NCBI GenBank assembly: GCA_020137815.1
Contig: CM035356.1
Location: forward strand, 3,968,001 to 4,032,000
Reading direction: 5' to 3'
DNA: 64,000 nt
Origin: Hormiphora californensis
Taxonomy: Eukaryota > Animalia > Ctenophora
Below are positions 3,657 through 29,300 of this stretch, one piece after another. The notes under the pieces were generated by a model. The model saw nothing but the letters and a program-made list of their open reading frames with translations, had not been told where the DNA came from and searched no databases. Numbering within the stretch: position 1 is the first letter of the stretch; every line of letters starts with the position of its first letter. The translations under genes and the position numbers were made by a program.

Positions 3657-3659
3657 AAA

Positions 3660-3814
3660 TAAAGTCCATTTTTATTCAACTGTTCACCCCCCAAAGTCGT
3701 GCGCGGAATTGTTTTGCGCGTTTATCACATGTTAACGTGTAGCGCGCGCAGCGTAAATTAAAATATCGCACGCGCACGAATTGAGGGGTGAACAGTTGAA
3801 TAAAAATGGACTTT
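3660..3814. mobile_element. Short MITE; a second family copy lies at about 21940-22092
   Basis: A ~30-bp TIR (taaagtccatttttattcaactgttcacccc) is present at both ends. The same internal sequence (aaagtcgtgcgcggaatt...tttatcacatgttaacgt) recurs at 21970-22020. Confidence 0.8.
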
Positions 3815-5002
3815 AACGCGATTTTTTTATTTATCACAATGAAAATTTTCCGCGCGCTTCAGCTTAGCGGCAGAGCTTTTAATTTTTAAATAAGCGCGTT
3901 ACATGTTTTGCAGCGCTTAACTCGAAATTTCGGTCGTGGATGAAAGGCTGCACACCACTGGGCGCGATTATAATCTGGGTGCCTTGCAGCCTGTTTACAG
4001 GTGCGCGCTGCCAAAAGAGTATACTTAGACCGACTTTTTTCAAACGGCTATAGCCATGGAACCACATGGTCGATTTGTGTAAACTAAACGGTATCAGTTA
4101 GAGAATCGATAGCCCTAACCGGTAACCCCAAACCAAACCCTAACCAGACCCTAACGGATAGCCCTAACCCGTCGCGCGCGCCAAAACTACGAATTGTTAG
4201 CAATGAAAGGCACCCAGATTTTAACGTTTTCCCACACCACTTGCACTGGTTGCGAAACGAAAAATCAACCCCGACGAGATTTTTAACAGTCCATTTTTTT
4301 CAACTGTTCGGCTGACGGCTACCTCTGAGTTCTGACCTCTTTACGTTTCTTATGATATCTACTGTTCTAGGGTCCTGAGCTGTGATTGGCTGAAATTTCG
4401 AGCGCCTGAAATTTCAGCCAATCAGAGTGCAGGATTTGAGCCGCGTGTAAGAGCCTCGGCCTGGAAGCGTATATTAATGTACTTAATTTTTAACTATATT
4501 TTATACGTATAGTGTAAGAGCGGGAGAGTCATATATTTTCTTATATTGAATCGATATAAATTGTGAAGTTCATATTCATATTCATAGCTTCCACTGGGCT
4601 TTCACTAGTGAGGGGTGGGTGCAATGAAGCTACCGTTCCCCGTCCTAGGTGATGTGATGTGACCGCCATTTATGGGGTGGTTTCTGTGGGGTGAAGTAAC
4701 GCCATCGCCCATCGCCTCCTTAAAGAACGATATCGAAGAAGGCAAAATGCTCAGATCACTATTCTCTACTACCTACAACAATCTTATCCCATTCTGATCA
4801 GCCGCTTTAACTTTAAGATTGTGGTCAGGCGAACAGATCAGTTTAACACGACCTCCCAGACACACAGAACGTGTCCCAACCCCATGTACCTAGTAAAAAC
4901 CTAACTGAAACCAGTAATTAAACAATATTTAATTGTTTCTTGTTGAATGTTGATAACTCTAGTTCACACAATTATGTTATAGGTCTGATGTACCAGTGAA
5001 CA

Positions 5003-8000
5003 ATGGATTTCAACGGTAAGTGTACGATTTTGTGAGCATTTATTAGGAAATATATTAGCAATATTAGGAGCAATGAGCATTATTAGGGTCATATATTAGA
5101 GCATTATTAGAAGTTAACAAAATTCTTTCGTTTATCCAACATTCATTGCTTTTTATGAAAGTTCTCATTAACTCTTCAGTTCACCAAAGGCAAGGGGGCG
5201 CAGAGCCAGTGCTCTTTGAGGATACATCATCTCCCCACCAACAGGTCAGGTATCACACACAACACCATAAATTATGATAGCGGGGGACGAGCCGTACCTC
5301 CGAAACGGTGATAGTTGTGCAAAAACAAACTACGGGAACATGCTGGAACAATTCCTGGACGACTTTTTGCAAATTATGAAATTTTTATTCAAAAGTTCAT
5401 TTTTCATTCATGAACTTTCTACACGTTCATTAATGAATTAAGGACTCTAATTTACCGAGAGTTGGGTATTTTGTTTGGGTTGGATTTATCTTTCTAATGA
5501 GCACCATAAACATCAAATTGAAGCACCAGGTCACATGGCAGTTGAGAAAATGCACATGCATGATTTTGGCTCTTCCTGCGACTTTCAATCGGCTGTATCA
5601 CGGCTACCTTTTGTTCAATCTTTTTTAAAATTTGGGGGAACATCGGATAAGCAAAGATCTTTCCTCACAAGAAAAATCAAGGTCAAAACTCAAAGTTCAT
5701 TTTTAAGTGTTGGTAGTTCATTCCACTCATTCAGGAACCAACATCCCTAAAGTGATGAAAAGTGATGGTTTTTGTTTGGCCGATACCCTGCAATGATAGA
5801 GAGGTGTAAAAATACGTTTCCGGGCTAGTTAGTGAGTGTCCATGTGATCATGATGATATCTGACACCTTTTCTGAGCCATAATTAACGGATTTTCTCAAA
5901 TGCAAGCATGTGATTTGAGTTTTCGCGATTGGTATCGTGCAGCAATGTTGAGAGATCTCATAGCACCTCAAAAATGATGATTAGTTCAATGAAAAGAATT
6001 GATTTATGATAGAAAAGATTAAAACAGACGTCAAAATGAACTAAACGATAATTTTCAATCATAAATCAACTCCTTTCATTGAACTAATCATCATTTTTGA
6101 GGTGCTATGAGATCTCTCAACATTGCTGCACGATACCAATCGCGAAAACTCAAATCACATGCTTGCATTTGAGAAAATCCGTTAATTATGGCTCAGAAAA
6201 GGTGTCAGATATCATCATGATCACATGGACACTCACTAACTAGCCCGGAAATGTATTTTCACACCTCTCTATCATTGCAGGGTATCGGCCAAACAAAAAC
6301 CATCACTTTTCATCACTTTAGGGATGTTGGTTCCTGAATGAGTGGAATGAACTACCAACACTTAAAAATGAACTTCGAGTTTTGACCTTGATTTTTCTTG
6401 TGAGGAAAGATCTTTGCTTATCCGATGTTCCCCCAAATTTTAAAAAAGATTGAACAAAAGGTAGCCGTGATACAGCCGATTGAAAGTCGCAGGAAGAGCC
6501 AAAATCATGCATGTGCATTTTATCAACTGCCATGTGACCTGGTGCTTCAATTTGATTTTTATGGTGCTCATTGGAAAGATAAATTCAACCCAAACAAAAT
6601 ACCCAACTCTCGGTAAATTAGAGTCCTTAATTCATTAATGAACGTGTAGAAAGTTCATGAATGAAAAATGAACTTTTGAATAAAAATTTCATAATTTGCA
6701 AAAAGTCGTCCAGGAATTGTTCCAGCATGTTCCCGTAGTTTGTTTTTGCACAACTATCACCGTTTCGGAGGTACGGCTCGTCCCCCGCTATCATAATTTA
6801 TGGGCCACACACAACACCATATATGGGCATCACGTGCCACTAATGACACATCATCTCTTCATAAACAGGTTTTTAGTATCACATAGCAACTGCTAAACCT
6901 CTAACACCCCTTCAGGCCCCGAGAAGTGCCCCCATCCACCACCACCAGTATAACCCTCAGCAGGGATCTGCTCCCCAACAACAGCAGCCCAATTTCGAGC
7001 AGTATGGTCAGTATATGAGGGACCCCATGGTGGCAAATATGGCCATGCAGTATGGCAGCAGTCTCGCCACCACTGGGAAGGCCTATGTTGAACAGAACGT
7101 GAGTGAAGAATTGTTAGTGTTGTTCTATCGTGGCAACTATCATCATGATTGTATCATGGTTATAATGTTTTGGTAATATTCAAAACTAGGACATTCTCAA
7201 TATTTTTAGGGTCTCTAATCTCTTAGCTGCAATTGGGGCCCTTAGCTACACCTAAAATACTTCTACCGTGTCTTTGCTTCCTAACTAATGACTAATCAAG
7301 GCAAATCACTCTCCCCCTCTTTTCAGCTGGACAGATACATCCCTATATCGCGGGTTAAGTTCTACTTTGCAGTCACCACTGACTATGTGGTACACAAAGT
7401 GTTGCTTCTCATATTCCCATTTCTCAACAAGGTATACATCAACTTCCCTTTTACACTAAGTATATACAGTTGGACCCCGATTTACCGGGAGGATAAAATT
7501 CCCCCGATATGGGAAAATAACGGTATTTGAACCCGATATACCGGGCACCCCAATTTACCGGGCAAAACCCTTTCCCCCGAGCATCCCGGTAATTCGGGGT
7601 TCGACTGTATCTGCTATTGTTATTGGTCTGTCCTATTGATGCCTAACAGTGCACCCTCCTGCCTCTGCCCTCCATAAATATCACCCCCTTAGGAATAGTG
7701 TACCTACCAGGACCACACTCTTCTCCCCCAGTCACCCCCTAATTAGGAATAGGGTACCTACCAGGACCACCCCCTCCTCCCCAGTCACCCCCTAATTAGG
7801 AATAGGGTACCTACCAGGACCACCCCCTCCTCCCCAGTCACCCCCTAATTAGGAATAGGGTACCTACCAGGACCACCCCCTCCTCCCCAGTCACCCCCTA
7901 ATTAGGAATAGGGTACCTACCAGGACCACCCTCTCCTCCCCCAGAAATATCACCCCCCCCCCACTTTATCAGGAATGGGGGTGCAAAACAGTGACCCCCC

Positions 8001-10448: not shown

Positions 10449-13314
10449 CCACCCCCTGTCCGGAGTACTGCTTTTTTTCCTTCTGTGTGTGTGTCGCAAC
10501 ACTGGAATCGTGCGCGTTCAGGGCATGTTTCAAGTTCCACGTGTCATAGCATAGCCCCTAATTAGATTAACGGATAATGATTCACACTAGGTTCAAGCCC
10601 AGACAATTCCTAATACCGTAGATCAAACCCGGACTTGATTGGATAAACACAGGCTAGGCTATGGGCTCTTTTGTAAAAGTCGTCATGATTCTGTACACCA
10701 CGGAATCTGTCAACCTAGGCAGCTTCTCCGGCTCACTGGAAGAATAATATCCCGAAATTCAAAAAAAGGCGAGATATGCCCTCTAGACAATTGTCTGCTG
10801 AAGAAGCTGGTGTAATTTTTTTCAAGATCCGACGTAAGACGTAGCCAGTTAGCTGTAACATTTGAAATCATGCTCATAATTCGTGTGGTGCGTCACAGTG
10901 CTGACACATTGATGTTTAGAGAGTACTGCTTTTTTCCAGAGTACTGCTTTTTCTCTCTCTGCCAAGAGGGCGCGTAGGGGGCTGTGTGTGGGGACTGTGA
11001 ATGTGTTGGAGTGTGGTGTATCAAGGCAGTGTGTGTGGTATTCTGATTTCTGTCTCTTACACGACTTAGTGTACCGGATACTATAAGCTGATACTATAAG
11101 CTGATAGGAGTAGACTGTTATTATACATGACTCATAATGCTTCATATTCCCCTCAGCTGTCCCTACCGGCGACCCCACCCCTCATCTGCTCCATCTCTCA
11201 GCTTACCTACCCCTCATCTACTCCAACTACCAGGCACCAGCTATCCTACCCCTCATCTCCCTCATCTACTACATCTCTCAGCTATCCTACCCCTCATCTA
11301 CTCTATCTCTCAGCTACCCTTCCCCCTCCCCATATACTACATCTTTCAGCTACCCTGCTCCTCATCTACGCCATCTCTCAGCTACCCTACCCCTCATCTA
11401 CGCCATCTCTCAGCTACCATACCCCTCATATAATACATCTCCCTGATATCCTACCCCTCACTCCTCATCTACTCCATCTCTCAGATACCCTACCCCTCAT
11501 ATATAATACATCTCTCAGATATCCTACCCCTCATCTATTCGATCTCTCAGCTATCCTACCCCTCAGCTACCATATTCCTCAGGTACCCCAATACTCCATC
11601 CTGCTAGATAACTGTAAGATCTTATTAGATGCTTCCCCCAGGATACCCACCAGACCAGGTTGTAAGGGTACCTGAAAGGTTCTAAGGAGTATCTAATGAG
11701 GTCTGGTGGGTATTCTGGGGGTTTTAGAAGCATCTAATAAGATCTTACAGTTATCTAGCAGGATGGGGTACCTGAGGGATATGGTAGCTGAGGGGTAGGA
11801 TAGCTGAGAGATGTATTTTATGAGGGGTAGGGTATCTGAGAGTTGACGTAGATGAGGGGTAAGGTAGCTGACTGCTGAGATGAGGGGCAGGGAAGCTGAG
11901 AGATGTAGTAGATGGGGAGGGGGAAGGGAAGCTGAGAGATAGAGTAGATAAGGGATAGGGTAGCTGAGAGATCGAGTAGATGAGGGGCAGGGAAGCTGAG
12001 AGATCGAGCAGGATGGGGTATTGGGGTACCTGAGGAAAATGGTAGCTGAGGGGTAGGATAGCTGAGAGATGGAGTAGATGAGGAGTGAGGGGTAGGATAT
12101 CAGGGAGATGTATTATATGAGGGGTATGGTAGCTGAGAGATGGCGTAGATGAGGGGTAGGGTAGCTGAGAGATGGCGTAGATGAGGGGCAGGGTAGCTGA
12201 GAGATGGAGTAGATGAGGGCTAGGGTAGCTGAGAGATGGAGTTAGTAGATGAGGGGTAGGGTAGCTGAGAGATGTAGTAGATGGGGAGGGGGCAGGGTAT
12301 CTGAGAGATGTAGTAGATGGGGAGGGGGAAGGGTAGCTGAGAGATAGAGTAGATGAGGGGTAGGGTAGCTGAGAGATCGAGTAAATGAGGGGTAGGGTAG
12401 CTGAGAGATGGCGTAGATGAGGGGTAGGGACTAGGGTATCTGAGAGATGGAGTAGATGAGGGGTAGGATATCTGAGAGATGCAGTAGATGAGGGGTAGGA
12501 TAGCTGAGAGATGGAGTAGATGAGGGAGATGAGGGGTAGGATAGCTGGTGCCTGGTAGTTGGAGTAGATGAGGGGTAGGTTAGCTGAGAGATGGAGCAGA
12601 TGAGGGGTGGGGTTGCCGGTAGGGACAGCTGAGGGGAATATGAAGCATTATGTGTCATGTATAATAACAGTCTACTCTTATAATATCCGGTACACTAAGT
12701 CGTGTAAGAGACAGAAATCAGAATACCACACACACTGCCTTGATACACCACACTCCAACACATTCACAGTCCCCACACACAGCCCCCTACGCGCCCTCTT
12801 GGCAGAGAGAGAAAAAGCAGTACTCTGGAAAAAAGCAGTACTCTCTAAACATCAATGTGTCAGCACTGTGACGCACCACACGAATTATGAGCATGATTTC
12901 AAATGTTACAGCTAACTGGCTACGTCTTACGTCGGATCTTGAAAAAAATTACACCAGCTTCTTCAGCAGACGATTGTCTAGAGGGCATATCTCGCCTTTT
13001 TTTGAATTTCGGGATATTACTCTTTCAGTGAGCCGGAGAAGCTGCCTAGGTTGACAGATTCCGTGGTGTACAGAATCATGACGACTTTTACAAAAGAGCC
13101 CATAGCCTAGCCTGTGTTTATCCAATCAAGTCCGGGTTTGATCTACGGTATTAGGAATTGTCTGGGCTTGAACCTAGTGTGAATAATTATTCGTTAATCT
13201 AATTAGGGGCTACGCTATGACACGTGGAACTTGAAACATGCCCTGAACGCGCACGATTCCAGTGTTGCGACACACACACAGAAGAAAAAAAAGCAGTACT
13301 CCGGACAGGGGGTG
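10449..13314. mobile_element. 2.9-kb non-autonomous foldback transposon, piggyBac-like, carrying inverted 28-bp minisatellite arrays
   Basis: TTAA flanks both ends (10445-10448 and 13315-13318). Termini are caccccctgtccggagtactgc / gcagtactccggacagggggtg. The unique arms are about 700 bp, followed by (ctactccatctctcagctaccctacccctcat)-type arrays facing a central palindrome at about 11596-11765. Confidence 0.88.
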
Positions 13315-13447: not shown

Positions 13448-14369
13448 TTAGGCGAACCCGACCGTAGCGTAGTTTTGGTGGACCTGAAAATATGATATTT
13501 ATATTGTTAGTTTGATGTCTTGTTCTCATATTGGCCGGAGAGGATTGTGTGTATTTGGATTTGGTTATATTTCCAGAATGATGATGGTGAGAGTTAATTT
13601 AATCTAGAAAGTTTAACTCTCGACAACCTACATACCTCTGCCTTGATGTCGGACACGAGATCCATGAGCCATGCCACAACCTTCTCCTCATTATCAGCCA
13701 GAGACGCATCGAGTTTCTTGGAGTCAGCCTCGCTCTGTTTATCGATCTGTGCAGAGTAGTCCTCCCCATAACCCTGAGACTGAATAGGAAATAGTGATTA
13801 GTTGATAGTTGTGTTCATGTGGAGACTGGATAGGACAGGGTGTTATTGATTAGTTGTGTTCATGTGGAGACTGAATAGGAGATATTGATTAGTTGTGTTC
13901 ATGGTCAATTGAGTTCTTGAAAAGATGAAATAATACAATGCTCCCTCCCCTGAATAGAACCCCATTGAAACAATTAATCTGAGAACAATGATATATAGGA
14001 ACAGCGGCGGATTACCTTAGCCATTTTTTCCTGGAAATCGGCTTCCATTTTCTTTTTAAATGCCGTAATTTCCTTTTTAGCTTCCTCCTTGGCTTCTTTC
14101 AGCCTCTTTTGCTTCTCTGAAAAGGGGGACAAGAAACTTAAGAAACTTGCCATTTTGTGATAAGTATAACAACCAAACTTAGACAGACAAGATAATCCAA
14201 TACAAATCAATGTTGATGTGACTTAAATGGCGAGAGATGCAGACAAGATATTACAGATGCCTGCATGCTCGATATCGATGTGCTTACTCTTTTTTGCCTC
14301 CGCAACCTTGGCGTTAGCCCTCTGTTCCGCCTGGAGTAACCTTTGAATTCCCTCTGATTTGGTTGCCAT
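13448..14369 (-). CDS. ATP6V1G: V-type proton ATPase subunit G (120 aa, 4 exons)
   Basis: Exons 14369-14288, 14116-14016, 13779-13636 and 13483-13448 join in frame: MATKSEGIQRLLQAEQRANAKVAEAKKK KQKRLKEAKEEAKKEI...VSDIKAE VHQNYATVGFA*. Confidence 0.95.
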
Positions 14370-17029
14370 CCTATCTAGTGGGAGGTAGTTATTTTGTAAT
14401 TTTGTTCCTGCCAAAATAGACTGGGACTTTCAGGTTTTACAATTAGCACTGAATTGTTGGTGACGCAGTCACCCTTACAACTCCCAAACTGAATTGGCAC
14501 AGCCATATTAGTGCCACAGAGAGAATGGTGGGACAGTGAACACCCGAGTTACCAACGGCCCGACCAAAATCAAATGCTGCCCTTTCAGGTTTTCAACTAG
14601 AGGACCTAGACTGATGTCGCAGTTACAAACTGGAATCTACCATCAGTTCGAATCATGGTGCTGAACCACGTGAAAGATATATGTAGTCTTATAGGATGAC
14701 GGTAGTTGACGGTCTTACTACTATTTTTGAGATCGTGGCTGGTGTCCTATTGTCCTATGACCTATATGACAAGGTGACTGGCACAGCTGTACCTCTATAT
14801 CAAAGTGTTGGATTACTGTTTACGTAAAGCACAGTGGACACCCAACCTGCTATGAGTTTGGCATCTATGATCTAGAATTACTGACACTGGTAGAAAGTAG
14901 ACATGGCCCTGTTGGCAAACTCGGTTGAGTTAGGGGTTATCCTACGTAAAGAAGCTGGTCTGGCTAAGTTTACAATGGTTACGTACAAAGCCTAATGGCT
15001 ATAAAAACAGAGCTCATAGTATAAAGGTGCCACGGCTTGAAGAAAGCCTGGAACTCTGATCTGAATGACTTAATTTCCCTGACTTAGATTCTCTGTCGGC
15101 TGTAGCAGCTGGGCGCTTGCGGGGACGGGTGAATAGCATTGTAATTCGGTTGCATTTATAATTGGGGGTCCCGGGCTGGGAAGAAATAGGACGTGAACCC
15201 AAGTCTGATTTTGAGAAACTGTCCGCCCCCTTTTTTTAGCATAGCTCCATCACCTGACAACATAGAGACTTCAAACTTGGAGGTTAGGAAGATCATGTCG
15301 AGTTCTTTCTTACCTCTAAATTTGAAGTCTCTATTTTATCAGGAACCGGATATAACTCGAAAATAATTTTTCCGAAAGGCGAAACCGGACATTTTTAAAA
15401 AACCAACTTTAAAGTCGGATTTTTTGAAACTGTCACCCCAAAATGACCGCGCAAGTGAAATTTATCAATTTTGACGCGCACACCACACGTTAATATCGGA
15501 TTTTTTGAAACTGTCACCCCCCTGGGTATTTTCAAATTTCGTAAATGACCATAAAGCCGGTTCCTGACGAGATAGAGACTTGAAATTTGGAGGTTACGAA
15601 GATCTTGCTAAGTTCTTCCGAACCTCCAAATTTCAAGTCTCTATCTTATCAGGAACCGGAGATATGTCAAATTTTGTTATTTCAGGGGGGTGACAGTTTC
15701 AAAAAATCCGACTTTAACATGTGATGTGACGCGCAAAAACATTCCGCGCACGAAAAGGGGGGTGACAGTTTCAAAAAATCGGACTTTAGCTTTTCGAGTT
15801 TCCAAGTTTTTAGAAATGACCTGGCATGGCGCACGCGCAATCGATGCAGCGCAAAATTAAATAAAAGCAAAATGCGCGTCGCTCGCGATGACATATTTTT
15901 TATTTTTATTTTTCCAGGCGGTGGTTTTTTTAAACTGTCCACTCGATTTCGAAAATTTTCCGGGGTCTTTCGCTCCCTTGGAATGCGCTGCAGCCCCCTC
16001 ATGCGCGCACCCCCGCAACGAGGGGACTGAAGGGAATGCCGCGCGCGCGTTTGGCCTGAGCTCAGGACGGGCCCGGCTGGGTCGAAGATAACTTTGCGAG
16101 CGAAAAAACGGCGGTGCTTATAACTTTGGCCCCTGAAGTCCGTTTGACTTGATTCTTTCACTAGCTGTTAGATCTGACAATTATCTACCTTGCTGTTTTT
16201 GAGAGGAGTTAATTGGACTTCAGGAGGCTGAGCAATAACCGTTCAAAGATGGGTTGTTTTCAAAAAGTGACGTCACGATTTCCCAAATTGAGGCTCATTT
16301 TCTCGAGTTTTCAAAAGTTTTCAAACTTTTTTCTTTTGAAATTTCTTTTTCAAAGTTTTGAAAATTTTGAAATTTTTACTTTTCGACACAGTTTGTTCGA
16401 ATTGTGTTTGCGATCGACCACAGACCCGTCGCAAACCTCTTGTACTATCTCTATTTCACGAACAAGAAATGTTTGATGTTCTCAGTAAGTCAGCTCTCAC
16501 GCCGGACCGAAGGTCTGAGCGTGAGCTCGGTTTAGTAGCTCGCTTAACTGGCCGAATGGACAGACTTCGTAGCATGGCAAAGAAAAATGAAGGGTTAAAG
16601 GGCAAAGCAAGAAACGACCACCGACATCAAGTTGTGCCCTGGCTCAGACTGGTCAAATTCCTTTGCTCTACCACTAAAAACAATACCTTGTTGCCAGGCC
16701 ACCTTACGACTATAGAGTTATGTTTAATGTTGGTATCGGAGATACCTCACACTCTGTCTACCTTTGTAATGCACGCTTCGTGCGCTGGCAAGGGAGGGGT
16801 AACTTCGTTACCAAAGAGTTGTGTAGCTTTATTGGGCCGGGTATCTTTAAACACTGAATAACTGTATCATTCTAAGTAGTTGTCATTATGGATGAGATAA
16901 GATTCGATAATCGATATGAATGTTACGAGTACTTGGTGTGGGAACAATGTCATACGGAAGAACCATCGTTGCTTTGATGCTCCTGAAGCTGTAACTTGTA
17001 AGTTAGATTTCTCGCCTAATCCTCGTTTT

Positions 17030-17077
17030 TCTCTCTCTCTCTCTCTCCCGGCTTTCCATTTCTATATTTTCTTCTCC

Positions 17078-17119
<42 letters not shown>

Positions 17120-17820
17120 ATCTCTCTCTATCTCTATCTCTATCTCTATCTCTATCTCCATCTCCATCTCCATCTCTCCATCTCTCCATCTCTCCATCTC
17201 TCCATCTCTCCATCTCTCCATCTCTCCATCTCTCCATCTCTCCATCTCTCCATCTCTCCATCTCTCCATCTCTCCATCTCTCCATCTCTCCATCTCTCCA
17301 TCTCTCCATCTCTCCATCTCTCCATCTCTCCATCTCTCCATCTCTCCATCTCTCCATCTCTCCATCTCTCCATCTCTCCATCTCTCCATCTCTCCATCTC
17401 TCCATCTCTCCATCTCTCCATCTCTCCATCTCTCCATCTCTCCATCTCTCCATCTCTCCATCTCTCCATCTCTCCATCTCTCCATCTCTCCATCTCTCCA
17501 TCTCTCCATCTCTCCATCTCTCCATCTCTCCATCTCTCCATCTCTCCATCTCTCCATCTCTCCATCTCTCCATCTCTCCATCTCTCCATCTCTCCATCTC
17601 TCCATCTCTCCATCTCTCCATCTCTCCATCTCTCCATCTCTCCATCTCTCCATCTCTCCATCTCTCCATCTCTCCATCTCTCCATCTCTCCATCTCTCCA
17701 TCTCTCCATCTCTCCATCTCTCCATCTCTCCATCTCTCCATCTCTCCATCTCTCCATCTCTCCATCTCTCCATCTCTCCATCCCTCTATCCCTCTATCCC
17801 TCTATCCCTCTATCTCTCAG
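17030..17820 (+). repeat. Polypyrimidine microsatellite with a core of (CCATCTCT)n over about 600 bp
   Basis: Perfect 8-bp period from about 17170 to 17780, flanked by (CT)n, (CTATCT)n and (CCTCTATC)n. Confidence 0.97.
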
Positions 17821-17942
17821 ATTCTGTTCCGGAAATAAAATTACTGGGCCAACGTACTATGAGCTAAACACTTGAGTAGGGGAACCGTTCACAGCCGCTT
17901 CTCATCGCCAGCAGATCTTTATTGATGGATTCACAGACCCTG
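17821..17942 (+). pseudogene. SMAD: Decayed R-SMAD (SMAD1/5- or SMAD2/3-type) MH2-domain exon
   Basis: The AG...GT-bounded exon reads TYYELNT*VGEPFTAASHRQQIFIDGFTDP, compared with the R-SMAD consensus YYELNxRVGExFxAS...VDGFTDP. TGA sits at the Arg position (17873-17875), and there are upstream indels around a YWA motif. The next acceptor at 20683 continues in phase as DSGR. Confidence 0.8.
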
Positions 17943-17974
17943 GTAAGTGGTTCTAGTCTAGAAGTGGGTTAGCA

Positions 17975-20110
17975 TGGATTCACCTCTGGACCCCTACTAA
18001 GCAACGTGGACCCCTTCTAACCCACCTCTGAGTCCTTTTACCTCAGCAGTCAGCTCCCTACTAACTCCCTCTGAAACCTCTCTATTATATCTCACCTCTG
18101 GAATCTTCTAACCTACCTTTGAACCCCCTTCTAACCCAACTCTGAACTCCTCCTAAATCAACTCTTAACCCCTTTAAACCACCTCTTGACCCCTACTAAT
18201 TACTACCCCACTCCTCGAACCCCTCTAACCCACCCTTCATCCCCTTCTAACAAATCTCTCAGCTCCCTAATAACCCACCTCCGGACCTCTTTTAACTTAC
18301 CTCTCGACCCCTTCTAACCCACCCCTAGTCACCTTCTAACCCACCTCTGGAACTCTAGTAACTCACCTCTCGACCTCTTCTGACTTCTAACCCACCTCTT
18401 GACCCCTTACCCATCTCTCGTACCACTTCTAACCCACCTAACAGACCCCTTCTAACCGAACCGTCAGATCCCTTCTAACTCTCCTCTAGACCCCTTCTAA
18501 CTCACCTCTCATCTCCATCTCTGGACCCCTAGTAACTCACCTCAATCCCTTTTAGCCCACCTCTCGGCCCCTACTAAGTACTAACCTATTTCTCGTACCC
18601 CTTTTAACCCCCTCTATCCCACCTCCCGACCTCTAGTAGAGGTCCTCTACTAACCCATCCCTCGACCCTTTCTAACCCACCTCTCGACCCCTATTAACTT
18701 ACGGCCACCCTTGGCCCCTTCTAACCCACATCTGAACCTCATCTGATTTCTAACCCACCTTTTGACACCGTCTAAGTCACTCTACTAAGTACTTACCCTT
18801 CCCTCGACCCCTTCTAACTCACCCCAGGACCCCTTCTAACTCACCTCTAGACCCCTTCTAACTCACCTCTCAATCCCTTTTAGCCCACCTCTCGACCCCT
18901 AATAAATACTAACCCTCCCCTCGACACATTCTAACCCACCTCTTGACCCCTTTTAAACCACCCCTAAACCCCTTCTAACTCACCTCTTAACCCCTTCTAA
19001 CCCACCCCTAGACGGACCTCTAGACCTCTTCTAACTCACCTCTCAATCCCTTTTAGCCCACCTCTCGACCCCTAATATGTACTAACCCTCCCCTTGACAC
19101 CTTCTAACCCACCTCTTGACCCCTTTTAAACCACCCTTTGAACACTTTTAACCCAACTCTAGTCCCATTCTGACCCACCTCTGGACCCCTAGTAACTCAC
19201 CTCTGTCCCCTTCTAACCCCCTTTTAACCCTTCTTTCCCACCTTCCGACCTCTACTAAACCACCTCTCGACCCCTTCTAACCCACCTCTCGACCCCTTCT
19301 AACTCATCTTTCAACCCCTCTTAACCCACCTCTCGACGCCTTTTAATCCACCTCTCGGCCCCTACTAAGTACTAACCCTTCCCTAGACCCCTTCTAACCC
19401 ACCTCTCGACCCCTTCTAACTCATCTTTCAACCCCTTATAATCCACCTCTCGACCCCTTTTAATCCACCTCTCGACCCCTAGTAACTCACCTCTTAACCC
19501 CTTCTAACTCACCTCTAGACCCCTTCTAACTCACCCTCGACCTCTTCTAACCCACCCCTAGGCCATAGACCCCTTCTAACTCACCTCTCAACCCCTTTTT
19601 ACCCACCTCTCCACCTCTACTAAGTACTTACCCTTCCCTCGACCCCTTCTAACCCTTCCCTCGACCCCTTCTAACCCACCTCTCGACCCCTTCTAACTCA
19701 TCTTTCAACCCCTTTTAAACCACCTCTCGACCCCTTTTAATCCACCTCTCGACCCCTCCGAAGTAGTTACCCTTTCCTCGACCCCTTCTAACCCACCTCT
19801 CGACCCATAGTAACTCACCCTGGACCCATTAGCGGTTAGCCTTCTAAGTTTTAACCCACCTCTCGTACCCCTTCTAACCCACCTCTTGACCCCCTTTATA
19901 ACTTACCTCTCGTATCCCTTCCCTCGACCCCTTCTAATTGCTATTACTCACCCATCGACCTCTTCTAACCCAACTCTCAACCCCTTCTAACCCACCTCTC
20001 GTACCCCTTCTAACCCATCTCTCGTATCACTTTTAACCCACATCTCGACCCCTACTAAACCACCCCTCAGTCCCTTCTAACCCATCTCTAGACCCTTTCT
20101 AACCCACTGC
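17975..20110 (+). repeat. Degenerate ~22-bp C-rich minisatellite
   Basis: Many diverged copies of cccacctctcgaccccttctaa with extreme C/G strand skew. Confidence 0.92.
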
Positions 20111-21271
20111 ACCTCTCGCCACCTTTTATCCCACCTAGATTGTAACCTAGATGCTATCTCTCTATCTAGAGATCCCATATTTGCATCCCTAGATGCCTTC
20201 TTTCCATCGCTAAATACTACATCGCTATCAAGACCAACATCGCCATCTCCAATTTTCGTTTTTAGGTCCTCCACCTCTACCTCCATCTCCATCGCTATCT
20301 CTACCTCTATCACTATTTACCATTATATCCATCCTTATCTCCATCGCTATCTACATCACCATCTCCAACATACATGTTAGTACCCCACCCTAATTTTAAA
20401 GCTACCGGCTACCCCATCCTCATTTATTACCCCATCTCTCAGTTAGCCCACGCTACCTCTCACTCTCAACTACTCAGGTACCCGTAGTCTCTGATCTCTG
20501 CCATCTTGCCCGCCGGGTACCCCATCCTGCTAGATACCTGTCATATGCTGCTTGCCCCTAAAACCCTCAGATATATACAAAATTTATCACAACTTGAAAC
20601 CCCTCAGACGCTACAAAATAACCCCCAGAGCATAGGCTTATGGTTAGTGGTTGGGCTTTCTTAACAGTGCCTATTTCTTTAGATAGTGGAAGGACCCTAA
20701 ACGCGGAGATATGGGGCTGGTGGAGAAACAACTCTTCGAATTCAGATTACAGCACGTAGCAGCTTGTGGTACACATTTCTGCGATGTACAACAGATTTGC
20801 CTCACCTAAACTTGGGTTGCCTATATAGACTCAATCACTGATTCCAGGGTAATTTGCCCCAAAATATCTGAGGAAGTGGCTCATGTTATTTATGAAACTT
20901 ATTGAAGTATTTAACATGTTTAATATGTTTCTAATTATGATTTCATGTTTCTTAATTTTGCCGGTTACCAAACATTAACCAAACCGTTAAACGGTTACCG
21001 TTTTATTTTGTGTGTCACTCTCTGGTACACTTTTGAACTGTGTGGAATCATAACTGTCGCGCGCGGTACTCTTATGATGGTGCTAGCGGTGCTAAAGTAA
21101 GCAGTGTCAGCAATGCTAAAGTAGGCAGTGTCAGCATTAGCCGCGGTATTCGCTCCAGGCCCCTTATATTATATTATAAGGGGCCTGCAACGTATGCCAA
21201 TTCGCTCCCTTGATGATTGATCCCTGCCGGGGCTTGCCGCCCATGGGCCCTACTCGCGGGTGCTCTATACT

Positions 21272-21931
21272 AGGGTTATCGATCTTTGGAATTGGCTTTT
21301 CGAGACTTCGGGCGTCCAGCATGAGGACCGGGGGTCTACATGGATTCAGAGAATCATATGCGCGCAGGCAGCAACCCTGTGGGCGAGCCGTACGGGCCGA
21401 TAGTTAATAATAGTTTTTTAAAGTTTTTAAAAGTTAATAAAAGTTATAAATAGTTAAATTCCAATTTTTTATTTAAGCGACAGGCCGCCGCGCATCAAAA
21501 TGCAGCGCTTGAAATCGATTTCCGGTTCCTGATAAGCTAGCGACTTTTTCTTGGTGCCATTGGAAAGATAAAAATTTCATCTTTCCAACGCAACCAGGAT
21601 AAAGTCTTTATCTTATCAGGAACCGGAGATATGACCAATTAACCAATTGAGTGCGCGGCGGCCTGTCGCTAAAATAAAAAATTCGACTATAAAAATGCGC
21701 GGAACCCTGAAAAAGTTGATTTTTTTCGGCTTTTCAGGGTGCCGCGCAATTTTAACTTTTTATAACTTTTATTAACTTTAAAAAACTATTATTAACTATC
21801 GGCCCGTACGGCTCGCCCACAGGGTTGCTGCCTACGCGCAAGTGATTCTCTGAACCCCTTAAGTCCCCTGGTCATCATGCTGGACGCCCGAACATTCCAG
21901 TATGACTTTCGTTGCGCAAATAGATAACCCT
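21272..21931. mobile_element. Inverted-repeat element (MITE/foldback)
   Basis: 21310-21410 (cgggcgtccagcatga...gggccgatagttaata) is mirrored at 21788-21890. An inner palindrome runs gcgacaggccgccgcgca...tgcgcggcggcctgtcgc. Confidence 0.7.
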
Positions 21932-22189
21932 ACTCTATACTCCATTTTTTTTCCAACTGTTCACTCCCTAAAGTCGTGCGCGGAATTTTTTTGCGCGTTT
22001 ATCACATGTTAACGTATAGCGCACACCACCCAAATTCTAATTTTTATTAAATTTCAGTTTTTGGGTGAACAGTTGAAAAAAAATGGACTTTACCCCCTAC
22101 GCCCCCGCCGGGGTTGCGCCCATGGGCCCTGTCTGTGGGGGGTTTTCACCCCCAAGCCACGCCCCGCCCCCTGACCGACGGTCAGTGAC

Positions 22190-23117
22190 CGATCTAACTG
22201 AGGTAGGCCGCTGGTCAAAGATTAACAACATGAGCCTCAATGAAGACAAGTTTGAAGTGCTCCAATACACCTTGAATAAAACCTTTCTCCTGAAACAACT
22301 TCCCTTTGTATCGGAACTGGACTCATATTACACACTTCAAATTAATCCGAAAGGTTGTGTTCGAGATCTCGGAATCCAACTTTCAAATAACCTGTCCTGG
22401 GAAAACAAATCGGAAAGATGACCACTGATGGTAGAAGGATAAGTGCTTGGGTGTTACGTGCCTTCAAGACCAGAGAAAAGAGGACCATGCTGATTCTCTA
22501 CAAGACGTTGGTACGCAACAAACTTGAATACTGCTGTCCACTCTGGGATTCTGCAAAAATCTCAGATATTCAAAAAGTTGAGATAGTTCAAAGAAAGTTC
22601 ACAAAACGAATCCAAGGCATGAGTGAACTCACTTACTGGGAACGACTAAAGAAACTAGGGATCCTGTCGCTTCAACGAAGGCGAGATTGCGAGAACGGTA
22701 CTCCATAATTATGGCCTGGAAAATGGCCAACGGGGAAGCACCGAATAACATTGGTATCCGGTTTTACCACAGCGAGCGTCTCGGAAAAAGAGCGGAAGTA
22801 CCAACATGCCCCACAACTACACAGACATCAGTCGCCACGAAGTATCATAACTCATTTGCTTCAAGAGCGACCCGATTATGGAACACTCTCCCGAGGGACG
22901 TTAATTTGGCGGAAGACCTACCGTCGTTTAAAGCACTTCTTGGGAAATGGTTGAAGAGGATGCCGGACAGACCCCCGGTACCTGGATATACCAGACAAAA
23001 CAATAACTCAATTCTGGACTGGAAACATCTTGTATCCAGGGAGGGGGAGGCTCTGTGAGGAGCTGACACCGGTGCAGCATCTGTACAAAGTTATTTACAA
23101 GATTACAAGATTACAAG
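22190..23117 (+). mobile_element. 5'-truncated CR1/L2-group LINE (RT C-terminus, frameshifted)
   Basis: WSKINNMSLNEDKFEVL...VRDLGI...LYKTLVRNKLEYCCPLW...LSLQRRR...RLWNTLP is spread across ORFs 22083, 22418 and 22687. The 3' tail is (ttacaaga)n. Confidence 0.88.
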
Positions 23118-23366
23118 TAACTGCCACCTGCACCCTTAGCCCCAGAAGCACAGGGACACGCCAGCCCGGAGGCTCAGCTCTGTCCCTGTGTCCATCCAGC
23201 ACGATTTTGAAAATTTCCAAATGAAGATTTAAGAATTAAGAGTGCGGGCGGACAGTTTTTAAAAAAATCTGACTTTAAATTGGGGGATAATCGCTTTCGT
23301 AATGAAGTTTTCCCGAAGTTTTATGCAAATTGACACCACGATCGAATTCTATATTTTAGACTTGAT

Positions 23367-26300
23367 ATGGACCACACTCTACGGGACAAGCGTCCTGTGG
23401 GGTGTTCCAAGGAGCCCGGGATGAGACCTGCCCGACCATCGTCTCCACGAAACCAGGTACTAATCAGCAAATAACAAATCAGGATAAAACTCCGCTAATT
23501 ATACGCATCTTATTGACACAATTTTCTGATTAACTTATCGGCCCTCAGGACGTTTCGTATGTGCTTTCCAATGCCTTCGGAGAGCTGTTCTCCAGTGACG
23601 TTTTGGAAGACACAACGATTATAAACTTGGAGACAAGCAGGACACACGATGACGATTTTCATGACTACTACGTTCAACTTCTCACAGAGGTGGGTACAAT
23701 TATTTACAAAGGTGTCTGTGTGAAGTAAAATCGTGATAATAGGTAACTGCAAAAGGGAAGTAGTTGAACCTCCCTCATATCTCTACTGTCCATTCTTCCA
23801 ACTATTACATCTCTTTATCACCCCTTTCTTTAGATTCGAACGGAGCGCAGTAAAAGGGTCGAGGAACTTCGGCTAGTGGAGGACCACATGTTGAGTGCTT
23901 ATAATCTGGCCAAGGAACAAAACCTCAACATTGAGCGTGATGAACGTGCTCTGGGGATCCCTGAGCGTAAGTACATATATACCCTGCTAACTTAAATAAT
24001 GCGCCAGTCCCACTAGCGCGCTCTCGATAACCAGCCAGTCCAGCGGCAGATTATTTCCCACTGGCAGGTTATTTATTTTTAACTCCTATGTTACATTCAA
24101 AGTGTGTGTAAATGATCAGTTCTTACTGAAATACAGAGGGAACACTGTTTGGAAGAGTTACACACTAAATTGGAGAGAAAGAAACAACACATTCCGTCAA
24201 TTACTCTCTCTTTATCTTCCCTTTTGTTTCACTATCTCAATTCCTCTGTGTTATGTCTGGCATGCCCCATATCTTGTTATTTCTTTCTCTCTCTCCTTAG
24301 TAACTGTTACCAAACAATGTACACTCAATTGAGAGATGTTTTTGACTGTTTCTCAGTTCTCTTTGTGTGTTTTGATTAGTGTTCTCTCTCTTGTTAGTGT
24401 GTAATACTTGTAACAAACAACTAAAGCAGGGTATATAACCTATAAACTCTTGCCACAGACGCGTTATAGGTTTAAACCCCTCCGCCTCTCCCTCGGCTAC
24501 GCCTCGGGATCGTCGTCGTGATTTAAACCAGTTTATCCGCCAGTGGCGGATAAACTACAGCTACCTTCTCCCAGCGGCGCGCTGGGAGAAAGGTATCTGA
24601 AATAACGCGCCACTGGCAAGAGTTTATACCTCATATAATGTTCGTTGTCCGAACCGGGCGTGATATTACATTCATGTAGTATGACATAATATATGTTAGA
24701 TACTTTAACTAACCCCGCTGTTTTAAGTATTTTATAACTGTTGTATTACCCCACGCAGTATTTATCAATAAGTATACCTCTCTCAGGGCACGTTGGTATG
24801 TCTTCCTACCTGGATAATGACCTGCTAAGCCGTTACAACCTCCTAACCCCGTCCTCCTATTTGAGGCCATCTCCACCATCCCTGGAATCCCCAACAATCC
24901 CTGACCTCCCTCACTTCATGAGAAACACCGAGGTATATTGGTATATAATTTGGGGTAATTAACTCTTTAATTGAGGGTAATTAGTTGTACAGTACAGGAA
25001 ACTACTGCATGGAGGTCTAATAGCTTCCCATTCCCGTTGTTGTGATGTAGTTGTATTATTACGCTCCAGTTGCAGATTGGAGGCTGGCGCCAGTTTCTGG
25101 CGCCAGCCTCCAATCTGCAACTGGCGCAAGCTGGGAGAGTCCCTGTGCGCGCGAAATATCTTCGTTGACTAGCAGGGTTTTCGATGTGATTTGCATCTAG
25201 AGTGGCGCGCGCGGCAGTGTCAGCAGTGTCAGCAGGGGCCTGCCTCATTGTAACTAACTTCGGTCGCAAAATCTCTAACTGGACCCTTTTGTTAACTTTT
25301 ATGTACTTGATGTATAGGGTATGCCGGGACAATTTAGACCACCGGGGAATTTGATACGTTTCTCACTTAGTAAAGCTATTTTACTGGGTAGAACTATTTT
25401 AGGTGTACATACAAAGGTAAGGAATTCAATACACACATAAAAACCGTACACACTAGGGACCCCACACAGCGTCTGCTGCAGCTAAGGGGCCCTGAAAACC
25501 TGATAGAAGGCTAGTAAAATACTGCAAAAGCCTCGACACGGAAATTTAAGTACTAAAGAGAGGGGGTAGAAAATACCTGGCGGACTGGCGGCTATCCCGA
25601 GGGTGGAGCAGCCCCATATCTCGGACTGTGAACATGAACAGAGTGGGAAGGGATGGGGGGGGGGAGGTGTAGAGTGTACTATAGAACGTTACTGGGTACA
25701 ATGGATTCAATAAGGTGTTTCTTAGTGAGACGGACAAACTCAGTCAAAGATTCACTCTGTCTGATAGGGTAGGGTAGCTTATTCCACAAGTCAGTGACCC
25801 GGTGAAAAAAGCTAGTCCTAAGAGCCCTATGAGTGTTCGTATTGTAGGCAGACATGAAAACTAGAGTCGTTCTGTCACGACCTTCCCGAATGTCAGTATT
25901 CTGACGGGTGGCCCTGAGTGTGCTGGGGTTGATCGGTTGAATGTACTGAGGGACAGTGATGCTAATCATACCATACACAATCTTGTAAAACAATCTGAGA
26001 TCGTTAAACTCGAAAAGCTGCCTAAACGGGAGAAGGTTCAAACTCAGGAGATGATCTACATACTCGTCATTAGTATACGAGGCAAGTGGTTCATTTCTGA
26101 TCCATTTTACAACCCGTTTTTGTAGCAATTCAAGTGACTTCAGGCTACCAGCATTCACACACGACCAGACCTGATTACAGTGCTCAACTAACGATCTCAC
26201 CATGGATAGATACAGAGTCCTCTTACAAGAACTCCTATAGAGGAAATAACAAGTCCTGCGGAGCAGGTTGAACTTAAACGACATGGATGTTATAATGGAG

Positions 26301-29300
26301 TCACAGTGAGAGTTGAAATCTAAAGTGCTGTTGATGACAATACCCAGGTCACGTTGGTTAGTGACATACTCCAGAGCCACCCCTCCAAGAGAGTAGAAGT
26401 ACTTGTGGAAGGGGAGGCTACTGAATGGGTTAGATGACTGGGTGGTAGGGCTGATGACACTCAGAACCTGGCACTTAGCTGGGTGGAACCGCATCATGCT
26501 CCGAATTGACCAATCATACAAGGCATCAATTGACTTCTGAAGTTCAAAATGATCACTCATACTGTCTATTCTGCGCCAGATCTTGGTGTCATCAGCATAC
26601 AAGGAGATGTTAGTCCCAGGTGAAGTTTCGTTAAAAATATCGTTAATAAACAGGACAAACAATACAGGACCTAAGATGGATCCCTGGGGTACACCAGAGG
26701 CCACCGGAAGGATATCAGAGCTCTCACCATCAATAACAACTTTCTGACATCTACCCTTCAGGTAGCTCCTAATGAGTCCCAGCAACTGACCACCCACACC
26801 AAAACCCAGCTTCAGCTTACTCAGTATCAAATCATGATTACAAGAATCGAAGGCACGGGAGAAGTCAAAATATATAACATCTACCCTCGCCCTCGCGTCT
26901 AATGCTTCTGCCAGATTGTGGGTGAATGGAATAAGTTGTGTGGTACAGGATCTACCTCCTAGAAAACCATGCTGACGGGGGATCTAAGTGGGGGGAACAG
27001 ACATCTAAAATCTTAGGCTTGACAATCCTCTCCAGGACCTTAGAAACGAGAGAAAGTAGAGATATGGGTCTATAGTTAGCCACGTCTCTCCGATCTCCTT
27101 TTTTAAAGACAGGTACTATTGAGGCAAGCTTCCAAGCGTCGGGAAATGTACCCACCCTAGCACAATTGTTATACAGTAACCAGAGGGGGTAAGTGAGAGA
27201 CCCAGCACAGTTTTTGAGGACTCTGCCAGGTATCCCATCATCCCCGCAGGCCTTAGAACTATCAATAGATGCAAGGGCAGTATACACTTCGTTATAGGTG
27301 AAGAACACTGAGCTCTCAGACTCATCTACCTCAATATCGTAGCTACTAGGAGCAGTGAAATGTGAGACAAGATGGTTGTTGAACAGGTTCGCCTTACCAG
27401 AGGGATCAGACCTATACACACCGTCACTAAATACGCTCTCGGGGATACGCAGGGTCTTACTGGACAACTTAACATGAGACCAGAACCTCTTGGTGATACC
27501 ACACCCAGAATCAACATCAAAATAGTCGTTCATTCTAGATGAGATAACCCTCTTTAGGTTTTTTCTAGCCCCATAATAAGCTGCCTTATTCTCAGGAGAG
27601 GGGTTGCCACTGAGACGAGATCTCAGGGTCTCCTTCCTGTTTCTAGCTCTCACCACATCACGATCATCATGCCACGACGGGGTGAAAGGGTTTCTCACAC
27701 GCTTCTTGGGGATGTACTTCTCACACAGACTAACAATTACTCTCCTCACATTCTCCCAGGAATCGTTGATATTAACACTAATAAGCCGATCCCAGTTCAC
27801 CATGCCAAGCGCGACATTCAGTGGGACGGGGTCGAACTTTCTAAAGTCATAACGGAATCTGGCGGGACGACTACTCCGGTTGAAACTTAGATTAATATTA
27901 AATCTCAGCCCGTAGTGATCAGAACAACACACCTCATTCACATCACAAACTGACAACTGTCCAACAAGATCCGGGCAGTTGGTAAACAACAAATCTAAGG
28001 TGTTACCAGAGACATGTGTAGGGGACATAACAAGCTGGGAATGACCTAGTTCACCACAGAGAAAATCAACAAACTCACCTTCAAGGGCATTCTTAGTGGT
28101 GCCATCGGGCCAGGAGATCCCTGGCAGGTTGAAATCACCGACTAAGAAATGCCGCTTGAAACTCCTGGTTTTGGCCAGGTTCAACAAATAACTTTTAACA
28201 TTGGACAGGTTAACAGATGTTAACGAACTAACTCGGTAAAATGTGGTGATGCAGAAACTTATGTTGGTACTACAGTTGAAAACAACACTGAGAATCTCTG
28301 CCTGGGTACTAAAGCGGTCAAACCTTATAACTAGATAGAGAAAGATCTTCCTTATGCGCTATGAGCACCCCACCACCATTGGCCCTAAACTTCTTGGGTT
28401 GGTCGGGGTCAAAGGGATGGGTGGCAGCACAGCGATCCAGTCTAAACACTTTGTACCCATTAGAGAATATCTCACTAGGCTTGATATTGCTTTTCAACCA
28501 TGTCTCGTTAATGACTATGATATCAGGCTTGTGAGTGTAGATGAAGTCCTGGAATTCTAGAACCTTGCTCACAGCCAGGTCAGGAGAGGTCTGACTAAGG
28601 TTAGCAGTGTGAACAAAGCCCCGAACATTGTTATAGAGCACACTCAGAGAACGAGGTCCTGGGTTGGCAATACTGGGGTTACAGACAAACAGCATGAGGA
28701 AGTTCATCACACACAAGAAGAGAGAAATCACAATACGGGACGTACCGTGATCTCTCTGTCTGGTGGCAAAGATGATGATACACACTAGATTAACATTAGG
28801 TCTAATAGTACACAGGGGATGGGAAGGGGGGAGGAGGGGCAGAACGGCTGGGGTTACCGTGGGGGATGGGTTAGTGATAGACAGGTGAGCAAAGAAACAG
28901 AGTGAAACGATAAACGTGTACATGAACAGTCCGAGAATGAGGCCACATACCAGTTCGAGGAAAGCCGCAAGGTCCGCAGGTCCTTCTAGATTCCCCTGGT
29001 TAACACATCTAGAGACATAAACACATTTTCCAATCCTCTCTCTATATAACTCTAAACAGATTGGTATTAGTGGCGAGAAGGGGGGCTACCCGTGTACAGG
29101 TAAAAACAGTTTAGTGGGGGCAAGAAGGGGGCGGACCGGGGTAAACAGCGAGGTAGGTAGAGCAAAACGGGTTAGGGAACGACCAGCAAGTAGAGGGTTT
29201 GGGGAGTGGGGATCAGATAATCAAACTCGAGTAAATATCAAATTAAATATTCAATCACTGTGAGAGTAAAAACTGAGAATCTTAACTTGTTACCAAAAAG

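What the first reader, a model, noticed from the sequence alone, without database searches (positions are those of the whole stretch)
16916..20850. R-SMAD MH2 exon with its intron embedded in a TIR-bounded element: possible transposon gene capture
Seen: exon 17821-17942 encodes YYELNT*VGEPFTAAS..IFIDGFTDP and keeps canonical splice sites. The next acceptor (20683) continues DSGR before similarity is lost, and an upstream donor at about 16998 joins a non-SMAD segment. No MH1 or rest of MH2 is visible. Known: DGFTDP followed by RFCLG is the R-SMAD MH2 signature, and Pack-type DNA transposons capture genomic fragments with their introns. Inference: a TGF-beta pathway fragment has been mobilised into a chimeric cassette that could produce a spliced non-coding transcript or small RNAs matching the parent SMAD.
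Basis: partly seen in the sequence, partly recalled or inferred. Interest (0 to 1): 0.72.

Follow-up and report, generated by a model that had tools for sequence, protein, structure and literature searches.

The report
Mass-copied SMAD exon in comb jelly
One exon of a growth-signal gene (Smad1/5), likely from a comb jelly, is broken in this copy but keeps its splice sites and is read at 25 or more times single-gene depth in two DNA samples, so it was likely picked up and spread by a mobile element, though not by the ends first proposed.

Summary
The exon is real. 17821-17942 is the first MH2 exon of a ctenophore Smad1/5 (80% identity over 30 aa to Mnemiopsis), with both splice sites. This copy is dead: two stops and a 5-nt deletion. 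No other SMAD piece lies in the window, and 'DSGR' at 20683 is not SMAD-derived.

It is not a lone decayed duplicate. In DNA contigs of two samples, single contigs on the exon and its donor junction run at 20-33 times the depth of single-locus contigs. About 81-82% of depth has the TGA stop; smaller classes have CGA or CTT there. Two contigs of a marine RNA library lie on the exon only, one in frame and joined to non-SMAD sequence on both sides.

The proposed 15201/23276 ends fail: no target duplication, the motif occurs 9 times in the interval, 15201 pairs with 15412 in its own small element, and it is single-copy by depth.

Best reading: DNA-level capture and spread by an unidentified non-autonomous element, most likely rolling-circle type. 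This is a new member of a known kind. The scan's index held no earlier finding of it on other DNA.

The parts
17821..17942 (+). Smad1/5-derived first MH2 exon (phase 0 to phase 1); dead in this copy: TAA 17836-38, 5-nt deletion near 17850, TGA 17873-75; member of a high-depth family
   Evidence: identity, lesions; 144 and 82 contigs laid on 17805-18110 in X1 and X5, single contigs up to depth 5522
16998..17820 (+). Candidate upstream intron: GTAAGT donor, (TCTCCATC)n array 17073-17818, pyrimidine-rich acceptor
   Evidence: X5 depth 654-2192 over 17805-17826
17943..20682 (+). Candidate downstream intron; 17943-18110 is high-depth like the exon; 22-bp minisatellite array about 18125-20107
20683..20900 (+). 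Candidate downstream exon, not SMAD-derived; weak likeness to the 3' flank of one RNA contig; right end approximate
   Evidence: no SMAD similarity; top of 96 local AG sites, p 0.05-0.075; copy number not measured
16408..16997 (+). Upstream block, low multi-copy (about 2x in X1, 6-8x in X5), with a donor at 16485 and the exon end at 16997; no protein match; holds a very abundant 39-bp hairpin motif at 16776-16814
   Evidence: (no match)
15201..15412 (.).
   Evidence: self-palindrome, reverse motif at 15416; X1 contig 15051-15307 depth 196, no differences; bin 15160-15264 at 1.2x and 0.9x
15409..15788 (.). Very abundant MITE-like element of the same terminal motif, with a nested copy at 15490-15717
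   Evidence: (summed depth 0.25-1.3 million; joints skipping the 224-225 bp nested copy)
15895..16314 (.). Separate very abundant repeat; near-baseline depth on both sides separates it from the SMAD block
   Evidence: bins 15790-15894 at 287/145 and 16315-16419 at 622/155
21271..21932 (.). Palindromic MITE with TAGGG ends and an 8-bp target duplication (hAT-like; superfamily label recalled)
   Evidence: CTCTATAC at 21263 and 21933
21935..22095 (.). Small MITE-like element of the shared terminal motif, with both its own ends; like 3660-3815
22200..23120 (+). Decayed 3' piece of a LINE with a short tandem tail; ends approximate
   Evidence: E=6e-7 to the window's RT ORF; that ORF is RVT_1
23248..23283 (-).
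   Evidence: depth not measured
14016..14372 (-). Neighbour: V-ATPase subunit G, first two exons; used as single-locus depth and RNA control
   Evidence: PF03179; spliced X16 contig; DNA depth 169-226

Best explanation
This is a broken copy of the first MH2 exon of a likely comb-jelly Smad1/5 gene, with its splice sites and intron edges, that was likely captured as DNA by a non-autonomous mobile element (most likely rolling-circle, Helitron-like) and likely copied to dozens of sites, while the ends proposed at 15201 and 23276 are not its carrier. Shown: the exon's origin, its lesions, the retained donor junction, high contig depth in two samples, three sequence classes at the stop codon, and exon-only contigs in one RNA library. 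Inferred steps: (1) an intact exon was copied with intron flanks; (2) intact copies multiplied first (CGA class, 6-8x); (3) one branch gained the TGA stop and became the majority, another kept an open frame with two extra codons (CTT class); (4) some copies are transcribed and the exon's own splice sites join it to foreign exons. Most of this RNA would be non-coding, and a 42-residue piece would not fold as an MH2 domain (general knowledge of the fold). Of the 0.55, I put about 0.35 on a Helitron-like carrier and 0.20 on a TIR element with other ends.
For: Origin: (88 of 122 nt identical to the lobate-type Smad1/5 transcripts L001 and L002; 11 synonymous and 6 non-synonymous codon differences in 29 codons). 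The same exon limits are seen in P0001, a read-through from a 600-bp contig.

Amplification: X5 single contigs at depth 5522 (exon), 4554 (across the donor) and 3549, against single-locus contigs of 82-226 (X5) and 148-213 (X1), i.e. 20-33x for the two deepest. Class shares agree in two samples of two studies: TGA 0.82/0.81, CGA 0.10/0.05, CTT 0.08/0.14.

DNA-level, not retroposed: the donor junction and 170 bp of intron are high-depth. One copy in 64 kb between V-ATPase G and a DLEC1-like gene fits a dispersed insertion. Depth falls from the exon (25x or more) to the upstream block (2-8x) to the flanks (1x), as nested subfamilies would give.

RNA: 2 X16 contigs on the exon and none past 17947; one leaves the genomic sequence within 4 and 2 nt of the two splice sites and has 11 extra letters (122+11=133, frame kept); the other ends at 17941. 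Its RNA-to-DNA depth ratio is about 18 times that of the most abundant MITE, so DNA carry-over is a poor explanation. Micro- and minisatellite-filled interior and no target duplication found fit a Helitron-like carrier (pattern recalled, with precedent in PMC4224331 passages).
Against: The carrier's ends were not found, and no empty site or second full copy was seen: no genome is held and collection scans with exon motifs found 0 matches. The tool warns that summed contig depth is no copy number; only single-contig depths are used as a floor, and they are halved if the baseline contigs are one haplotype. Depth cannot tell dispersed from tandem copies. No convincing Helitron 5'-TC or 3' hairpin-CTRR pair was identified by eye. 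The upstream block is far less abundant than the exon, so the window's layout is not the family's common form. RNA evidence is two contigs from one mixed marine library (1 of 2 RNA-type runs laid; X18 had 0), strand unknown. No contig laid in X1 or X5 shows the window's own letters at 17872-73 (sum check), so the window copy may be a rare or mosaic version. Nothing right of 18110 was laid.
Confidence: 0.55

Rival explanations
1. A lineage-specific family of SMAD-derived chimeric genes that expanded by ordinary segmental or tandem gene duplication; some members (CGA and CTT classes) code for protein and the window holds a dead member.
For: Open-frame classes at about 6-8x (CGA) and 11-21x (CTT) baseline; an in-frame RNA contig joined to non-SMAD flanks; an exon-intron-like layout with donors at 16485, 16998 and 17943; no element ends found.
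Against: About 81-82% of depth carries the stop. No such protein in 5.8 billion clusters or 1.84 billion representatives beyond the two lobate hits, though this species' proteins seem absent from those libraries altogether. Neighbouring genes are single-copy, so the duplicated unit is small.
Confidence: 0.25
2. The exon sits in a satellite-like tandem unit amplified at one or a few loci; the window copy is a stray.
For: Both flanks are tandem repeats; contigs show local duplications at the exon start and in the intron start (tables 5c and 7).
Against: No second copy in 64 kb; three distinct classes stable in two samples; graded copy number of the upstream block.
Confidence: 0.12
3. The first reader's Pack-type element bounded by TIRs at 15201 and 23276 moves the cassette as one 8-kb unit.
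For: A 30-bp, 83% inverted match; the two ends share the TCCGCCC variant of the motif; the right end has TTAA outside.
Against: No target duplication; similarity stops after about 35 bp; 9 motif copies in the interval, 8 of them locally paired, 15201 with about 15412; 15201 and two internal stretches are at or near single-locus depth while the exon is at 25x or more. The 23276 end could still belong to a carrier with another left end; its depth was not measured.
Confidence: 0.05
4. An ordinary single decayed duplicate, with the high depth coming from chance, another organism or non-chromosomal DNA.
For: The tool cautions against reading contig depth as copy number.
Against: In X1, 113 of 144 contigs laid are 95% or more alike. 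X1 and X5 hold the organism by long, near-identical single-locus contigs. Class shares repeat in two studies.
Confidence: 0.03

Closest known systems
Bat Helitrons carrying host exons and partial introns, e.g. HelibatN3 with the NUBPL promoter, first exon and partial intron at about a thousand copies (PMC4224331; 12 passages seen)
   Same: Host exon copied at the DNA level with intron sequence and amplified by tens to thousands; some copies keep open frames.
   Different: Here the piece is an internal coding exon of a signalling transcription factor in a ctenophore, and Helitron ends and empty sites are not shown.
Pack-TIRs of animals, including the multicopy Ssk-FB4 family of Drosophila (PMC8277862; abstract and sections 9 and 14 read)
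   Same: DNA-level capture, multicopy spread, transcription as chimeric RNA, possible young protein family.
   Different: Pack-TIRs are defined by two TIRs of one element around a 100-5000 bp insert with a known parent; the proposed ends here fail. The multicopy families in the section read have 3-4 loci, far fewer than the depth here implies.
Ctenophore Smad1/5 (M. leidyi AEP16394.1, B. microptera XP_063692753.1). M. leidyi has five Smads, two of them Smad1/5 (PMC3169577 passages)
   Same: The exon is their first MH2 exon: 80% over 30 aa, same limits as in P0001.
   Different: One exon only, broken in this copy, no MH1, no rest of MH2, no C-terminal SSxS; present in many copies.

Membership tests
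Pack-TIR (criteria of PMC8277862, section 14) | Two TIRs of the same element flank the insert | tested here: not met
   15201 pairs locally with about 15412, is single-locus in depth, and similarity to 23276 ends after about 35 bp
Pack-TIR (criteria of PMC8277862, section 14) | Target-site duplication at the element's ends | tested here: not met
   No direct repeat of 4 bp or more at any boundary pair in 15190-15206 x 23270-23292
Pack-TIR (criteria of PMC8277862, section 14) | Parent copy in the same genome at 90% identity or more, free of flanking TE | not testable with these tools
   No genome held; parent-like CGA-class contigs exist at 6-8x depth
Pack-TIR (criteria of PMC8277862, section 14) | Captured piece keeps introns (not a retrocopy) | tested here: met
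   High-depth contigs span the donor into the intron
Helitron with captured gene fragment | 5'-TC and 3' hairpin plus CTRR, inserted in AT without target duplication (recalled) | tested here: inconclusive
   Read by eye only: a TC after A at 16414 near the left edge of the multi-copy block; the CTAG at 21270 belongs to an inserted MITE junction; no 7-bp duplication for 16395-16415 x 20860-21300
Helitron with captured gene fragment | Empty site in another haplotype or paralogous locus | not testable with these tools
Helitron with captured gene fragment | Multicopy amplification of the captured exon with intron edge | tested here: met
   not specific to Helitrons
Functional R-SMAD gene | MH1 domain, complete MH2 and C-terminal SSxS | tested here: not met
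   Only MH2 profile positions 12-45 hit in six frames of the window; next best iE 0.51
Functional R-SMAD gene | Open reading frame | tested here: not met
   Two stops and a 5-nt deletion in this copy; other classes appear open over the stretch seen
Processed (retroposed) pseudogene | Joined exons without introns | tested here: not met
   Single exon with both splice sites; the parent's neighbouring exons are absent

The most novel reading that the evidence does not exclude
A mobile element has turned one Smad1/5 exon into a portable, spliceable cassette in a comb jelly, and an open-frame branch (about 10-20 copies) now makes a young family of chimeric proteins bearing the start of the MH2 domain, or the family's RNA feeds small RNAs that tune the parent Smad1/5: transposon-born regulators of BMP-type signalling in a ctenophore.
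Probability: 0.12. Interest if true: 0.78.

Novelty: new member of a known kind. Interest (0 to 1): 0.5.

Why it matters
Gene-fragment capture and amplification by DNA elements is known from plants, bats and flies. A core developmental signalling exon spread to dozens of copies, with dead and open-frame branches side by side and some exon-only RNA, gives a natural test of how new chimeric genes or silencing RNAs arise in a ctenophore. It also warns that SMAD counts, primers, RNAi or CRISPR designs on this exon in this species would hit many copies. I saw no report of such a family in six literature searches (listings only: 15 of 82, 15 of 34, 15 of 875, 15 of 160, 7 of 7 and 12 of 877 papers). 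Repeat libraries and supplements of ctenophore genome papers were not read and may list it.

Tried and rejected
Own-genome search: no genome held. Exon DNA motifs: 0 matches in metagenome contigs and viral contigs. Protein search at 22-70 aa: no candidate. Search of 1.84 billion representatives: 5 hits, of which 1 is P0001 and 4 are unrelated repetitive proteins, dropped as chance. Related-locus scan: 5 loci of 302 candidate stretches, all continuous across the exon junction and so transcript-like; no genomic parent and no family member.

SMAD origin of the 20683 exon: a by-eye likeness (MGLV to IGLL, ITDS to LSDS) failed all shuffles. SMAD origin of the upstream exon: p 0.25 and 0.72; no homologue; no Pfam match. 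The 173-aa ORF 16340-16858: no Pfam match, frame-breaking indels in X5, Atlas search unavailable. Rfam on 14400-23400: 4 weak microRNA-hairpin hits on the MITE hairpins, all below gathering score.

The 3' flank of the X16 RNA contig has no match in the window at up to 3 mismatches; its likeness to 20683 is only suggestive. Run X18 had no contig on the exon and none on V-ATPase G, so it is uninformative. The 11 marine and viral metagenome rows with small shares were not used, except X16, which was laid. No fold or complex prediction was run: a 40-residue broken fragment would not inform.
Full report
Setting. No whole genome is held for this window. The interval lies between a V-ATPase subunit G gene on the minus strand (Pfam PF03179) and a DLEC1-like gene further right (E=8.5e-25). 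The nearest named homologues of the exon are ctenophore proteins, so the animal is likely a comb jelly. Earlier notes on this genome say the same (unchecked notes).

The exon. 17821-17942 is 122 nt with a CAG acceptor after a pyrimidine tract and a GTAAGT donor. Read with X at the stop, it matches PDB Smad1 (E=4e-4) and Pfam MH2 positions 7-35 (E=1.3e-4). A search of longer proteins gave 2 of 2 candidates, both 80% identical over 30 residues: M. leidyi Smad1/5 and a read-through protein, P0001, from a 600-bp contig. P0001 leaves the SMAD sequence at the same two points, which implies a 127-nt parent exon (inference). Against transcripts L001 and L002 the window has 88 of 122 identical letters and one 5-nt gap. 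The first 12 codons are SMAD in another frame and contain a second stop, TAA at 17836-38. This copy cannot code for SMAD.

No other SMAD part. tblastn of three full-length proteins and a sliding 40-residue test found only this exon (output partly cut). A profile of five ctenophore-type MH2 domains hit only this exon in six frames (iE 1e-11; next unrelated hit 0.51). The 20683 segment is not the parent's next exon: 4 of 4 DNA tests gave p 0.69-0.90 and 15 of 15 protein tests p 0.09-0.96.

The proposed termini. 15201-15228 and 23246-23275 match as inverted repeats over 30 bp at 83%, and similarity stops soon after. The motif is common: 15 hits in the window, 9 between 15193 and 23280, 0 in 20 kb of shuffled sequence on one strand; the five seeds hit by construction. 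Eight of the nine pair locally into small palindromic elements (15201-15412, 15409-15788, 15490-15717, 21935-22095); only 23276 is unpaired. No direct repeat of 4 bp or more flanks the proposed ends. In X1 one contig of depth 196 runs unbroken over 15051-15307, and the bin 15160-15264 is at 1.2x (X1) and 0.9x (X5) of single-locus depth. The 15201 end therefore does not travel with the exon.

Copy number. The run search listed 18 runs; four were laid: X1 (first sample), X5 (second sample, another study), X16 (marine RNA library) and X18. Single-locus contigs have depth 148-213 in X1 and 82-226 in X5. On 17805-18110, 144 contigs were laid in X1 and 82 in X5. Single X5 contigs reach 5522 inside the exon and 4554 across the donor, 20-33 times baseline. 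Summed depth at the stop codon is 136-153 times baseline, but overlapping contigs inflate sums and the tool says depth is no copy number. I take about 25-fold as a floor (half that if baseline contigs are one haplotype) and about 150 as a ceiling. The intron start to 18110 is also deep, so the copies are DNA-level. The upstream block 16408-16994 is only about 2x (X1) and 6-8x (X5); stretches at 15790-15894 and 16315-16419 are near baseline.

Three classes. At 17873-75 the depth splits into TGA (0.82 in X1, 0.81 in X5), CGA (0.10, 0.05) and CTT (0.08, 0.14). Loose ends at 17851 and 17859 supply the letters that the window lacks, so the CGA and CTT classes appear open over the stretch seen; loose ends at 17836 show a short internal duplication in other copies (reading of the tables is mine). 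The shares agree between two studies, as a fixed genomic family would give. Against the window copy itself: no laid contig has its exact letters at 17872-73 (sum check 0.0 and 0.1), so it may be a rare recombinant or an assembly mosaic, or its contig was filtered out.

RNA. X16 holds the organism or a very close relative: one contig joins the two V-ATPase G exons with one difference in each. It has 2 contigs on the SMAD exon and no depth from 17948 to 18110. One is 191 nt, of the CTT class, with 11 extra letters that keep the frame; it leaves the genomic sequence 4 nt before the acceptor and 2 nt after the donor, into sequence that is neither the introns nor the SMAD RYCIGLL motif. The other keeps the stop and ends at 17941. 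RNA-to-DNA depth is about 18 times higher for the exon than for the most abundant MITE. This favours transcription and splicing over DNA carry-over, but it rests on two contigs of one mixed library, with strand unknown; X18 gave nothing, on the exon or on V-ATPase G. The 3' flank of the first contig scores best at the 20683/20687 site among 96 local AG sites, but 478 of 8784 AG sites in the window score as well (5.4%; shuffle p 0.075): suggestive only.

Mechanism. Shown: origin, lesions, retained donor junction, high depth, three classes, exon-only RNA contigs. Inferred: DNA-level capture of one intact exon with intron edges, spread by a non-autonomous element, decay of most copies, and splicing of the exon into chimeric transcripts. 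I favour a rolling-circle carrier because no TIR or target duplication bounds the multi-copy block, the interior is filled with micro- and minisatellites, and abundance is nested. Its ends were not found, so this step is weak. A plain gene-family expansion (0.25) and a tandem array (0.12) remain open because depth cannot place the copies.

Comparison with what is known. It works like the bat Helitron captures (NUBPL exon and partial intron at about a thousand copies; passages of PMC4224331) and the multicopy Pack-TIRs such as Ssk-FB4 (PMC8277862, abstract and sections 9 and 14). It fails the Pack-TIR test for the proposed ends and is untested as a Helitron. M. leidyi has five Smads, with two Smad1/5 (passages of PMC3169577); those passages mention no fragment family. 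Six literature searches showed no report of an amplified SMAD exon in their listings. No supplements were read; repeat tables of ctenophore genome papers may bear on novelty. The scan's index gave no look-alike by place, sequence or words.

Verdict. Observation partly confirmed, interpretation partly supported: amplification yes, proposed TIR carrier no. New member of a known kind; interest 0.5.

Noticed in passing
window 16776-16814 and 14457-14480: A 39-bp motif with two short TTC-loop hairpins has summed depth of 240,000-400,000 with unrelated flanks on both sides in DNA and RNA contigs; a related hairpin lies at 14459. It may be the end of a very abundant element family.
   Followed up: partly
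window 3653-3816, 4273, 15193-15788, 21925-22096, 23280: A family of small palindromic elements shares one terminal motif, often with TTAA outside and AG as first letters (Kolobok-like by recall). All clear copies lie in two spacers: between the SMC-like ATPase at 1518-1829 and the next gene, and between V-ATPase G and DLEC1-like.
   Followed up: partly
window 10450-13314 and 61454-64000: Large foldback structures: 638-bp arms at 99% around 32-bp minisatellites, and a second one at the window's end. 20400-20600 is a decayed relative of their inner part.
   Followed up: partly
window 5265-6803: Near-perfect palindrome, 752-bp arms at 99% with a 35-nt spacer, flanked by a direct repeat of about 14 bp.
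   Followed up: no
window 21271-21932: MITE with TAGGG ends and an exact 8-bp target duplication, inserted at the end of another small element.
   Followed up: partly
window 25679-29085 (minus strand): LINE with endonuclease and reverse-transcriptase frames split over adjacent ORFs, followed by a 244-aa ORF at 29547-30281.
   Followed up: no
window 17872-17873: The window's two letters here appear together in none of the laid contigs of either DNA run; each belongs to a different copy class. Possible gene conversion or polishing mosaic.
   Followed up: partly
window 15080-15187: One X5 contig of 611 nt aligns on both sides with about 305 letters between, against 106 in the window: an insertion or replacement polymorphism just left of 15201.
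   Followed up: no
L004, L005: Two divergent Smad1/5-like transcripts with long linkers (535-540 aa frames) and a three-residue insertion in the same exon region, likely the second ctenophore Smad1/5 paralogue.
   Followed up: no
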